DNA from: a virus
Lineage: Duplodnaviria; Heunggongvirae; Uroviricota; Caudoviricetes
IMG/VR virus record: IMGVR_UViG_2859821903_000002
Span: 1-32,444 of that record
DNA length: 32,444 bases
Direction: 5' to 3' (one strand)
Made by a program: the position numbers. Each line of letters starts with the position of its first letter. Positions within the stretch are counted from its first letter, which is position 1. Shown piece by piece: positions 30,001 through 32,444 of the stretch.

Positions 30001-32444
30001 AACTCCGGGAGAAGTAAACGACAGCTGTTGTAGTTTCTGGTTTCTACTGAATTTAAATTGTGGGGTGACACTCACCCCACGCATTCAGAAGGGGGAGATG
30101 AGATGGGGGTAACATCGGGATGGGTAGGCTCTTCGGCTAAGAGCGAAACAGGTGAGCAGTGGATGGGAGCCGCCGGAACCAAACTGGGACTGAGTAAACC
30201 TTTTATGATGAGCCAAATGGTTGGGCGAACTATGGGCTGTAAAATTGCAACTGAGTACTATAAATGGAAATCCTCTGACAAGGTTGATAACTGGGGCGCA
30301 GTTGGCGCTGACTGGCCTTTAGAAGAAAAAAGTAAAGGTACAATTACAAACGCCGCAAGCTGCGGATCAGGGAGGCTGGTAGGGGCTGTCGTTACACTTT
30401 CTCACTTTTTGACGAACTCTACACCGACAGCTGCTGTTTATTTAGCCGGTGGTAAAGCAGGTAACATCACCGTAAACGTAGGTGGTGCTACACAAACCAT
30501 GATTTATCAGGGCGTTGTTAGTGGGTTCCAGTATTACTGGTCAGGTTCTGTTAGTTCCGCTTTCGTGGAGGCAATGAAAAAGACGGGAGTACCCCAGGAT
30601 CTAAAAATTAGTTAAATGGTAAATAAATAATTTTAAAAACTTCACGTTCTACATACCGGAGACGCCGGATATATAGGATATTGTTTTAAGTTGCCAGAGA
30701 AATTTTTCCGGACGGATGCTGATAATAATGATGTGCCAATGACGGCAGCATCATTGATGGCACTGAGTGAAGCGACAGAGCAGGCGATGTTTGCGAAGGG
30801 AGTGGAGATTAATACACGGCAGTTGCAGATGAAAGCCGAGGTTGAGGCGCTGACAGACCTGAAGGCGATCCGCAGTTATGTTGTCGGATGGCCTGCTGGC
30901 TGAATAAAAAAACGGGACCACGACCAGTCCCGGAACCATGAGTTTTAGGGTATTAGTTTGTTATCATAGTTAGCGTGCTAAGTATGCCATGTCAGGTTGA
31001 TTAGTGAAGTGATGTTGTTCGCATTTTTGCACGGCGGAGAATATTCAGATTTTTGGAAATCCATATTTTTCCCGTGCGCGATTACATGCTTCATTTACGA
31101 TGCTATTTTCGCCGGACATTGCGAATTCCCTGCATGTGGACGGTTTTTGTAAACAGAGCAATATGCGTTTTCTCCGGGGGGGGCCGGCAAGAGCGCCACA
31201 TCGGGGATTTTTCTGATTGGTGCCGCGCATACAGCGATGAAAAGGAGATATTTGCTCAGTGAGACTGACCGAAACCTTTCCGCCAGCATCGTCAGTTTCT
31301 GCCCAGTAAAAAGAGACGCGGAAAATGCACAACAGGCACCACACGTCATGCATGGATTCAGATTGCTCATAATTCACCAGTACAGCTATAAATCGTAAAG
31401 AGAACAGCGGTACATCGTATGTAAGAACGTACCGCGGCTGGCTGGTGAACTTCCGATAGTGCGAGTATTGAATGATTTCCAGCCGTTACAGATTTTACGT
31501 GCTAATTAGTGAACAAACCACTCGTCAGCAGACTCCCAGGTATCTTTCAGAGTTTCCTGAACAAAAGTTTTAGCTGAATCTTTATCGGCGGTGCGCGTAA
31601 CAGAAAGGCCATCGTTGCTGGTAGCTTTTACGATCACCTCTACATCGTCATAACGTTTACTGATGCGTCGGGTTAATTCTTCCTTTAACGCATCCACAGC
31701 ACCGGTTGGCATTTTAGTCATTTTTTCTTTGGCTATGCAGATTTCAATACGCATAAAAGTCCCTCTACACTGTGTTTGTATACAGTATCATTTTTGACTG
31801 TATGGATAAACAGTATCAAGGGTGAAGGAAAGTGATTTTTTGGGGCATGCATGGGGCAAAAATATTTGTTGTGGGGCATTTTGGGGCATGATTGGGACAC
31901 TTTGTTACATATGAACTTTGCCGATTTTTATATGACATGGAAATACAACGCTTTGATTCTTCTAAATAAAAAACATGCTCTTGGGCGTTCTTTAGTGATT
32001 TTTAAAAATTCCGTATCACGCAGTTAAAGTGGCGGGCATACTCTTCAAGGCTGGTAATCCCCAACCGCACCCATTTAGGGTGCGACCATTGCGGTAGACC
32101 GATGTAAATCATAACGCGTGAAGGATCTCTTCCACGCTACGCACACGGGCGATGCGCGGGTAGATATGATTAATGCTGTTATTGTGTTGCTCGGCGCTGG
32201 CGGCACTACAGGCGTCTTCGGCAATCACCAGATTAAAGCCAAGTTCCCAGGCATTGCGGGCGGTGGATTCAACACCGATATTGGTCGAGATCCCACATAA
32301 CACTATTGTATCGATACCTCGGCGGCGCAGTTGCAACTCCAGATCCGTACCGTAAAACGCACCCCACTGACGTTTGATGATTTCGATATCACTGTCAGTT
32401 GCACCTAATGCAGCTGGATGTTGCCACCAGTTTTCGGGCAACAC

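What the first reader, a model, noticed from the sequence alone, without database searches (positions are those of the whole stretch)
31841..31898. Helically phased TGGGGCA repeats between the dinI-like gene and the host-like gene: candidate integrase arm sites marking the prophage end
Five copies of TGGGGCA/TGGGACA start at 31841, 31852, 31872, 31882 and 31892, in the same orientation with 10-11 bp spacing, in the 354-bp gap between the last phage-like gene and the isochorismatase-family gene. Direct repeats phased by one helical turn are typical of integrase arm-type or other cooperative binding sites.
Basis: inference. Interest (0 to 1): 0.55.

Follow-up and report, generated by a model that had tools for sequence, protein, structure and literature searches.

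The report
Integrase arm sites at prophage end
The five TGGGGCA repeats are very probably the docking ("arm-type") sites of the prophage's own integrase, about 120-180 bp inside the right end of a lambda-like prophage inserted in the E. coli gene yecE: an ordinary but cleanly documented example of a known mechanism.

Summary
That is far beyond chance.

The prophage/host junction is a CACGCAGTTAA core at 32017-32027, inside yecE. The repeats therefore lie in phage DNA, 118-186 bp from the crossover, and strains with an intact yecE lack them.

The other prophage end was read in a 99%-identical prophage in E. coli O104:H4. It carries the same motif as an 11-bp-spaced doublet in the same orientation, about 65 bp from the core, inside the last codons of int.

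That integrase has an N-terminal Arm-DNA-bind_2 domain, and a model gives it a confident three-strand-plus-helix fold.

The doublet recurs in both arms in relatives with different cores: Stx1_499, Stx2a_1447, TL-2011c, Salmonella FSL SP-016, K-12 Rac and P22. It is present at the int 3' end in 78 of 80 homologues from different species.

This is a new member of a known kind, of low to moderate interest. Binding has not been shown experimentally.

The parts
31841..31847 (+). Arm-type copy 1 (TGGGGCA), first half of the distal doublet
   Evidence: Exact motif. Retained in diverged yecE P arms from strains S792, EcN and ETEC1734. Absent from the single-doublet relatives Stx1_499 and Stx2a_1447.
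31852..31858 (+). Arm-type copy 2 (TGGGGCA), second half of the distal doublet, 11 bp after copy 1
   Evidence: The only substitution seen in relatives is the permitted G/A at position 5.
31872..31878 (+). Arm-type copy 3 (TGGGGCA), 10 bp before the proximal doublet
   Evidence: Kept in EcN, decayed to CGGGACG in ETEC1734, deleted in the EDL933 remnant.
31882..31888 (+). Arm-type copy 4 (TGGGGCA), first half of the core-proximal doublet that all relatives share
   Evidence: Aligns with the single P-arm doublets of Stx1_499 and Stx2a_1447. It lies 211 bp from the P' doublet, against 207 bp in Stx1_499, FSL SP-016 and Stx2a_1447.
31893..31899 (+). Arm-type copy 5 (TGGGACA), second half of the proximal doublet
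   Evidence: TGGGGCAT-NN(N)-TGGGACA is also the form of the P' doublet in attL.
31899..31940 (.). Candidate excisionase (DUF1233 Xis) binding region, between the arm sites and the IHF-like site. Inferred and weak.
   Evidence: GAACTTTGCCGA aligns with tandem decamers in relatives: GAAATTCGTCGAAGTTCATCGA in Stx1_499 and Stx2a_1447, AGTTCGTTAAAGTTCGTTAA in FSL SP-016. These repeats differ between phages, whereas GGGRCA does not.
31946..31958 (-). IHF-consensus site (CAACGCTTTGATT matches YAANNNNTTGATW) with an adjacent A/T tract at 31960-31975. Inferred.
   Evidence: Exact consensus match (sequence). A comparable element, ATCAnnnnGTTA, sits between the P' doublet and the core across 78 homologues.
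31977..32009 (.). Conserved core-proximal block GCTCTTGGGCGTTCTTTAGTGATTTTTAAAAAT. Role inferred: a core-type Int site and/or a bending site.
   Evidence: Conserved even in relatives with a different core, Stx2a_1447 and FSL SP-016.
32017..32027 (.). Common core CACGCAGTTAA of attR; the prophage/host crossover region inside yecE
   Evidence: Identical in attR (the window), attB (L003 about 1503-1513) and attL (L004, L001). Empty-site genomes align from query position 618, i.e. window 32017.
32028..32112 (-). Severed 5' end of host yecE (DUF72), left at attR
   Evidence: The ORF at 32002-32112 begins [14 protein letters not shown].... yecE is intact in the empty locus L003, 778-1596.

Best explanation
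The repeats are the P-arm arm-type binding sites of the prophage's heterobivalent tyrosine integrase. This is a 436-aa IntR/DUF3596-type Int, encoded about 48 kb away at the other prophage end and outside the window.

Proposed mechanism. Each Int protomer binds a core-type site at the crossover (CACGCAGTTAA in yecE) with its core-binding and catalytic domains. Its small N-terminal domain (three-stranded sheet plus helix) binds a distant TGGGRCA. Two adjacent copies 11 bp apart seat two N-domains side by side. The proximal P-arm doublet (31882/31893) and the P' doublet, which lies inside the last codons of int, together offer four arm contacts for the Int tetramer. IHF-type bends (31946-31958 in the P arm, plus one between the core and the P' doublet) fold the arms back onto the core. 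Xis (DUF1233) is expected to bind between the arm sites and the bend to favour excision from attR. The three extra copies (31841, 31852, 31872) probably give alternative or cooperative Int seats, as P1 and P2 do in lambda.

Shown here: the position of the repeats relative to the mapped core; the same motif in both arms; family-wide conservation; and the arm-binding-type domain in Int.

Inferred: actual binding, stoichiometry, the role of each copy, and the IHF and Xis sites.
For: 1. Location. The repeats lie in phage DNA 118-186 bp from the core mapped at 32017-32027 and are absent from the empty yecE locus. For comparison, lambda's own sites read from its genome lie at about -143..-131 (P1), -112..-101 (P2) and +54..+83 (P'1-3), abutting the int stop.

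2. Same motif, same orientation, in the other arm. attL of the 99%-identical O104:H4 prophage and of phage PhiR49_2 reads TATGGGGCATCATTGGGACAT, 64 nt beyond the core.

4. Conservation in otherwise diverged arms and with different cores. Doublets occur in both arms of Stx1_499 (Int 76% identical), Stx2a_1447 (72%), TL-2011c (69%; 4 P-arm copies spaced 11/20/11), Salmonella FSL SP-016 (64%) and K-12 Rac (42%; 3 P-arm copies plus a non-coding P' doublet). The distance from P doublet to P' doublet is 207-211 bp in four of them.

5. Breadth. All 80 close IMG/VR relatives and 78 of 80 homologues from different enterobacterial species (45-89% identity) carry exactly one TG[TC]CCC-N5-TG[TC]CCC near the int stop.

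6. Selection on DNA, not on protein. The doublet sits in the least conserved part of Int (tail 38% identity), yet its synonymous positions are fixed while neighbouring third-codon positions are nearly free. In Rac it lies after the stop codon.

7. Protein and motif agree. The N-domain is the most conserved part of Int (81%, against 57% for the core-binding domain and 69% for the catalytic domain), matching an invariant arm motif with variable cores.

8. Module boundary. The dinI module is shared with many phages only up to about window 31823 and then diverges, so the repeats travel with int/att. mEp460 has the same dinI module but an Rci-like int and no doublet.

9. Unbiased scan. Of 124 occurrences of TGGGGCA-N4-TGGGGCA sampled from IMG/VR, 71 lie within 200 nt of the 3' end of a family int.

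10. Decay where function is lost. An orphan EDL933 remnant shows mutated or deleted copies.
Against: No binding or recombination experiment exists for this phage, and none could be run here. The N-domain shows no significant sequence similarity to lambda Int's arm domain (hhalign probability 0.2%) or to any PDB chain, so its assignment rests on the Pfam model and a predicted fold. The structural model is poor outside residues 1-190 (mean pLDDT 55.5). Relatives manage with a single P-arm doublet, so copies 1-3 may be dispensable, redundant or serve another role. The int and attL used are from a 99%-identical prophage in another strain, not from the window's own genome. Phased direct repeats in a P arm are also the classic signature of excisionase sites.
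Confidence: 0.82

Rival explanations
1. The repeats are binding sites for the recombination directionality factor (the DUF1233 excisionase). It would polymerise on direct repeats one helical turn apart in attR to bend the P arm during excision.
For: Direct repeats spaced one helical turn apart are typical of RDF sites; this is stated for Apl and for RDFs in general in PMC7498355 (abstract) and for the tripartite Gifsy-1 Xis site in PMC2603039. The repeats lie in the P arm, where Xis acts, and a DUF1233 excisionase is encoded next to int.
Against: The same motif occurs as a doublet in the P' arm at attL, where lambda-type Xis does not act. The motif is invariant while Xis diverges to 30-71% identity. 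A separate set of tandem decamers between the doublet and the core does vary between phages and is a better Xis candidate. The motif tracks the highly conserved Int N-domain.
Confidence: 0.08
2. The repeats are upstream regulatory sites of the divergently placed SOS-controlled dinI promoter (activator, UP-like or Int-mediated control), rather than recombination sites.
For: A sigma-70-like promoter for dinI (TTGATA, 18 nt spacer, at 31819 to 31790) overlaps two LexA boxes and lies only about 22 bp from copy 1. Arm-type sites that double as promoter regulators are known for KplE1 IntS (PMC2951348, title and abstract).
Against: The dinI-plus-LexA-box module is found in many phages joined to unrelated sequence immediately beyond window 31823. 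The motif also occurs where there is no dinI: the Rac P arm, P22, and the int 3' ends. A regulatory side effect on dinI is not excluded, but it cannot be the primary role.
Confidence: 0.05
3. The repeats are a chance or slippage-generated repeat with no function.
For: The motif is short, and its overall frequency in the window is as expected (11 observed, 13 expected). A local duplication of a 21-nt unit is visible.
Against: The clustering bound is about 1e-7. The copies are conserved across 75-78%-identical arms. The motif recurs at equivalent positions in six independent phage lineages and in 78 of 80 species.
Confidence: 0.02

Closest known systems
Bacteriophage lambda attP arm-type sites (P1, P2, P'1-P'3) bound by the N-terminal domain of lambda Int
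   Different: The motif is unrelated: TGGGRCA against lambda's CAGTCACTAT type. The arm domain belongs to a different Pfam family (PF12167, against PF09003 for lambda) and shows no significant sequence similarity. All copies here are in one orientation, whereas lambda P2 is inverted. There are five P-arm copies instead of two and two P' copies instead of three.
Salmonella phage P22 attP
   Same: The P22 genome shows a GGGACA doublet (11-bp spacing) about 125 bp left of the annotated core, a GGGACG between them, and a GGGACA doublet 66-83 bp right of the core inside the int 3' end. That doublet encodes VPNMSH, against VPMMPH here. The motif, orientation and layout are the same. The mv4 integrase preprint lists P22 among the few recombination systems whose site organisation has been fully characterised, citing Smith-Mungo, Chan and Landy 1994 (10.1101/2023.11.06.565760).
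   Different: P22 Int is only 26% identical, and only over the catalytic domain. It does not reach the PF12167 threshold. It targets a tRNA-type core. I could not read the 1994 paper, so the identification of its mapped arm sites with these GGGACA copies rests on my reading of the sequence plus memory.
Gifsy-1 attP with its tripartite Xis site
   Same: A lambdoid enterobacterial prophage that uses Int, Xis and IHF, with Xis bound cooperatively to three imperfect direct repeats in attP (PMC2603039). The Gifsy-like phage FSL SP-016 shows both GGGGCA doublets and separate tandem decamers.
   Different: Only Xis binding has been characterised there, and PMC2603039 states that the recombination system itself had not been characterised. 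The sites studied there are Xis sites, not Int arm sites.
E. coli K-12 Rac prophage IntR/XisR module
   Same: Same Pfam architecture (PF12167 plus PF00589). There is a GGGGCA doublet between the 26-bp core and the intR stop, and three GGGGCA copies (spacing 19 and 11) about 105-135 bp from the core at attR.
   Different: 42% identity; it targets ttcA; the P' doublet is non-coding. I found no published description of these Rac arm sites in the searchable library.

Membership tests
Arm-type sites of a heterobivalent (lambda-type) tyrosine integrase attP | The repeats lie in element-derived DNA outside the crossover core, within the ~250-bp att region | tested here: met
   The core is mapped at 32017-32027 by three-way comparison of attR, attB and attL. 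The repeats lie 118-186 bp to its left and are absent from empty yecE loci.
Arm-type sites of a heterobivalent (lambda-type) tyrosine integrase attP | The same motif is present in both the P and P' arms and is unrelated to the core-type sequence | tested here: met
   The P' doublet TGGGGCATCATTGGGACA is present in attL. The core and its flanks contain no GGGRCA. The same holds in six other phages.
Arm-type sites of a heterobivalent (lambda-type) tyrosine integrase attP | The cognate integrase carries a separate N-terminal arm-DNA-binding domain | tested here: met
Arm-type sites of a heterobivalent (lambda-type) tyrosine integrase attP | The motif co-occurs with the integrase family rather than with neighbouring cargo genes | tested here: met
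   78 of 80 species homologues and 80 of 80 close relatives carry the doublet. 71 of 124 unbiased pattern hits sit at the 3' end of a family int. mEp460, with the same dinI module but a different int, lacks it.
Arm-type sites of a heterobivalent (lambda-type) tyrosine integrase attP | Sites for an architectural bending protein (IHF) lie between the arm sites and the core | tested here: inconclusive
   There are exact IHF-consensus matches at 31946-31958 and at +20 of the P' arm, and a conserved ATCAnnnnGTTA in 78 homologues. No consensus match was found in several relatives' P arms, and consensus matches are weak evidence.
Arm-type sites of a heterobivalent (lambda-type) tyrosine integrase attP | Direct, sequence-specific binding by the Int N-domain, and a requirement for recombination | not testable with these tools
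   Needs EMSA or footprinting and att-mutant recombination assays.
Recombination directionality factor (Xis) binding sites | Confined to the arm where the RDF acts, and co-varying with the RDF protein | tested here: not met
   The motif is present in both arms. It is invariant while Xis falls to 30% identity.
Part of the dinI / SOS regulatory module | Travels with dinI and its LexA boxes in other phages | tested here: not met
   Similarity of dinI modules in 150 phage records ends at about window 31823, just before the repeats. mEp460 is an example.

The most novel reading that the evidence does not exclude
GGGRCA doublets may be a shared 'arm code' for a very large clade of enterobacterial prophage integrases (P22, Rac, Gifsy-like, 933W/Stx-type, yecE-type) that differ only in core specificity. 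In polylysogens such as EHEC, which carry several such prophages, each Int could then occupy the arms of the others, so that co-resident prophages cross-regulate (help, sequester or poison) one another's integration and excision. In this phage, the surplus copies (five P-arm sites where relatives have two) would tune that competition, or couple Int occupancy to the adjacent dinI promoter.
Probability: 0.15. Interest if true: 0.55.

Novelty: new member of a known kind. Interest (0 to 1): 0.3.

Why it matters
This gives a base-pair-level map of the right attachment site of a common yecE-integrating E. coli prophage: core, arm sites, and likely IHF and Xis sites. The phage type is present in about 240 of 5,426 complete genomes at 90% identity or more, and in diverged form in about 600 others.

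More usefully, the TGGGRCA-N4-TGGGRCA doublet is a near-universal marker of the att arms of the DUF3596/IntR-type integrase family. It could therefore sharpen prophage boundary calling and attP reconstruction for many Stx, Gifsy-like and Rac-like prophages.

The finding does not change the understanding of site-specific recombination.

Tried and rejected
- Tandem Repeats Finder found no array. This is expected, because only the heptamer repeats.
- A profile search of the Int N-domain against all PDB sequences found nothing.
- hhalign against lambda Int's N-domain was not significant, and against P22's N-terminus was weak (E 0.004, probability 8%). Homology of the arm domains therefore could not be shown by sequence.
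- The full-length AlphaFold model is poor beyond residue ~190, so only the N-terminal and core-binding parts were used.
- Phylogenetic footprinting among close relatives (81-99% identical arms) was uninformative, because the whole arm is conserved. It became informative only with 68-78% arms and with heterologous phages.
- Literature: searches for yecE att sites, arm-type sites in Stx/933W or Rac phages, and the motif string gave nothing relevant. The key P22 and Gifsy-1 papers (Flanigan and Gardner 2007; Mattis 2008; Cho 1999; Smith-Mungo 1994) are not held.
- Rfam found nothing in the region. The promoter/terminator scan found only the dinI promoter and a yecD-side hairpin.
- The candidate Xis repeats in the window are degenerate (spacing 16 bp, second unit poorly matched), so I list them only as a weak inference.

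Full report
**Observation.** The + strand carries TGGGGCA at 31841, 31852, 31872 and 31882, and TGGGACA at 31893. Spacings are 11, 20, 10 and 11 bp, which puts every copy on the same helical face, with one unoccupied turn between copies 2 and 3. The heptamer is not over-represented in the window as a whole (11 found, 13 expected), but five copies in 59 nt is far beyond chance. The largest same-strand cluster in 300 first-order-Markov simulated windows was two, and a Bonferroni-corrected Poisson bound is about 1e-7. No other 10-12-bp-spaced pair of the motif exists in the 32 kb. A 21-nt unit (TTTTGGGGCATGNNTGGGRCA) occurs twice 41 bp apart, which suggests that a doublet was duplicated.

**Where the prophage ends.** All 5,426 complete E. 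coli genomes match the right part of the region. Those without the prophage match only from query position 618 (window 32017), and there yecE (DUF72) is intact next to yecD. I compared three sequences: attR (the window), the empty site (L003), and attL of a 99%-identical prophage in O104:H4 strain FDAARGOS_349 (L004; likewise phage PhiR49_2, L001/L002). They share the core CACGCAGTTAA, window 32017-32027, with partial identity continuing to the right (TTAAnnTGnCGGG). The 354-bp "gap" is therefore not intergenic. Its last ~95 bp is the severed 5' end of yecE, and the repeats lie in phage DNA 118-186 bp from the crossover. The window itself has no integrase. In the O104:H4 prophage, xis and int sit about 48 kb away, immediately inside attL.

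**The other arm.** Read in window orientation, attL continues from the core for 64 nt and then reads TATGGGGCATCATTGGGACATAAT. This is the same motif, in the same orientation, as an 11-bp-spaced doublet. It lies inside the last codons of int, where it encodes ...VPMMPH....

**Comparative test in both arms.** Relatives of this Int with diverged arms and, in most cases, different cores all show the motif in both arms.

| Phage or prophage | Int identity | P arm | P' arm |
|---|---|---|---|
| Stx1_499 (also in yecE) | 76% | one doublet, TGGGGCATCAATGGGACA | one doublet |
| Stx2a_1447 (core ACGCGCGTAACG...) | 72% | one doublet | one doublet |
| TL-2011c | 69% | four copies, spaced 11/20/11 | one doublet |
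| Salmonella phage FSL SP-016 (intact attP between int and a dinI-like msgA) | 64% | one doublet | one doublet |
| K-12 Rac (IntR) | 42% | three GGGGCA copies, spaced 19 and 11, ~105-135 bp from the 26-bp core | doublet between the core and the intR stop, non-coding |

The distance from the P doublet to the P' doublet is 207-211 bp in four of these phages, despite unrelated intervening sequence. In an alignment of diverged yecE arms, the window's proximal doublet (31882/31893) aligns with the single doublet of the two-copy phages. EcN keeps all five copies, ETEC1734 has one decayed copy, and an orphan EDL933 remnant has mutated or deleted copies.

**Breadth, and selection on the DNA.** All 80 close IMG/VR relatives keep the P' doublet, varying only G/A at position 5. 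Among 80 homologues from different enterobacterial species (45-89% identity), 78 have exactly one TG[TC]CCC-N5-TG[TC]CCC in the ~5-kb locus, always 17-112 nt before the int stop. The doublet sits in the least conserved part of the protein (tail 38% identity). Even so, its synonymous positions are fixed while neighbouring third-codon positions carry about 0-0.6 bits. Together with the non-coding position in Rac, this shows selection on DNA rather than on the peptide. The N-domain is the best conserved region of Int (81%, against 57% for the core-binding domain and 69% for the catalytic domain). That is what one expects if arm specificity is fixed while core specificity diversifies.

**Unbiased scan and module boundary.** I sampled 124 occurrences of TGGGGCA-N4-TGGGGCA from IMG/VR. 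Of these, 71 fall within 200 nt of the 3' end of a family int. Many of the others are non-coding and P-arm-like, with 2-5 copies followed by tandem decamers. The dinI/LexA-box module is shared with about 150 phage records only up to window ~31823 and then diverges, so the repeats belong to the int/att module. mEp460 has the same dinI module but an Rci-like int, and it has no doublet.

**Anatomy and mechanism.** The layout matches lambda's attP as read from its genome: P1 about -143..-131, P2 about -112..-101, P'1-3 +54..+83, abutting the int stop. Here the copies lie at -181..-123 and about +70..+87. An exact IHF consensus (CAACGCTTTGATT, minus strand) with an adjacent A/T tract lies at 31946-31958. 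Another lies 20 nt into the P' arm, and a conserved ATCAnnnnGTTA sits between the P' doublet and the core in the 78 homologues.

Between the arm sites and the IHF-like site, relatives carry tandem decamers that differ from phage to phage (for example GAAATTCGTCGAAGTTCATCGA and AGTTCGTTAAAGTTCGTTAA). The window has a degenerate version at 31899-31940. These are the better candidates for Xis sites.

I therefore propose a lambda/P22-style intasome. Four Int protomers bridge the core and the arms. The proximal P doublet and the P' doublet supply the four N-domain seats. IHF bends the arms, and Xis remodels the P arm for excision. Copies 1-3 would be extra or alternative seats. Position, motif sharing, conservation and domain content are shown here; binding, stoichiometry and the roles of individual copies are inferred.

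**Relation to what is known.** P22's genome shows the same arrangement: a GGGACA doublet ~125 bp left of the annotated core, a GGGACG between, and a GGGACA doublet inside the int 3' end that encodes VPNMSH. P22 Int aligns with this Int at 26% identity through that tail. The mv4 integrase preprint lists P22's att among the few fully characterised site organisations, citing Smith-Mungo et al. 1994 (10.1101/2023.11.06.565760). I could not read the 1994 paper, so equating its mapped arm sites with these copies is my reading of the sequence. For the Gifsy-1 system only Xis binding had been described (PMC2603039). I found no description of arm sites for yecE, Stx/933W-type or Rac integrases in the searchable library. 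The finding is thus a new, well-supported member of a known kind.

**Rivals.**
- Xis sites: disfavoured by the P' copies and by the motif's invariance across Xis divergence.
- dinI promoter elements: the promoter's -35 hexamer is only ~22 bp from copy 1, but the module boundary and the dinI-less occurrences argue against a primary role.
- Chance: excluded.

**Verdict.** Confidence is about 0.8 that these are Int arm-type sites, highest for copies 4 and 5. Interest is low to moderate.

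Noticed in passing
L004 16119-16889 (attL of the O104:H4 prophage); window 32002-32112: The phage P' arm mimics yecE beyond the core: it encodes ...TRHVNCVE where the native gene has ...ARHFNCVE. RefSeq annotates a 771-nt DUF72 gene that starts inside phage DNA and overlaps the int stop by 19 nt. The prophage may therefore supply a replacement 5' end for yecE, which fits the statement in PMC4632033 that phi297 integrates at yecE without changing gene function.
   Followed up: partly
window 31770-31785 and 31798-31813: Two LexA-box-like palindromes (CTGTGTTTGTATACAG and CTGTATGGATAAACAG) overlap the predicted dinI promoter (TTGATA at 31819-31814). They lie immediately left of the arm sites.
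   Followed up: partly
window 1-378, 651-2723 (ALIL pseudoknot 1791-1907): The left end of the window holds insertion sequences. The first ORF begins [22 protein letters not shown]..., which looks IS1 InsB-like (from memory). An IS3-family element follows, with an Rfam ALIL frameshift pseudoknot (120 bits) between its two ORFs (651-1154 and 1833-2723).
   Followed up: no
window 28480-29685 (+): The side-tail-fibre-like ORF contains a long collagen-like Gly-X-Y tract ([26 protein letters not shown]...).
   Followed up: no
window 31095-31370 (-): A 91-aa ORF between the tail-fibre genes and dinI starts [14 protein letters not shown]..., a Cys-rich CxxCxxCC motif. It may be a small metal-binding cargo gene.
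   Followed up: no
L006 1-783 (E. coli AVS0151, same yecE attR): In this strain a reverse-transcriptase-domain gene and a SLATT-domain gene (a retron-like defence pair) sit directly next to a frameshifted dinI at the prophage end. One arm copy there is mutated (TGGAACA).
   Followed up: no
L175 385-600 (E. coli O157:H7 EDL933, NZ_CP120944.1 ~2466288-2466451): An orphan, decayed copy of this P arm plus a yecE-like core (TCATGCAGTTAAAGTGGCGGGC) lies between an IS3 transposase fragment and an ompW fragment, not at yecE. It appears to be a relic junction carried to another locus. The same 68%-identity hit is seen in hundreds of O157-type genomes.
   Followed up: no
L301 21169-21186, ~21234, 21388-21405 (phage P22): P22's attP carries GGGACA doublets in both arms and a GGGACG between the P doublet and the core. 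This is the same motif and layout as here, even though P22 Int is only 26% identical and does not score as PF12167.
   Followed up: partly
L242 5945-5984; L285 ~5750-5800; L245 ~13750-13880 (IMG/VR contigs): Longer GGGGCA arrays occur in contigs with no detectable family integrase in the fetched stretch: four copies at exact 11-bp spacing in L242, and copies on both strands in L245. They may be arms of more distant integrases or something else.
   Followed up: no
L208, L219, L244, L247, L248, L250, L256 (IMG/VR contigs): A recurrent non-coding element, ATGGGGCAAAAATGGGGCAAACCGTACGCCAATCnATGCCATTCAATGCC, combines the GGGGCA doublet with repeated ATGCCATT(C/T)AATGCC. It probably represents another att type that uses the same arm motif.
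   Followed up: no
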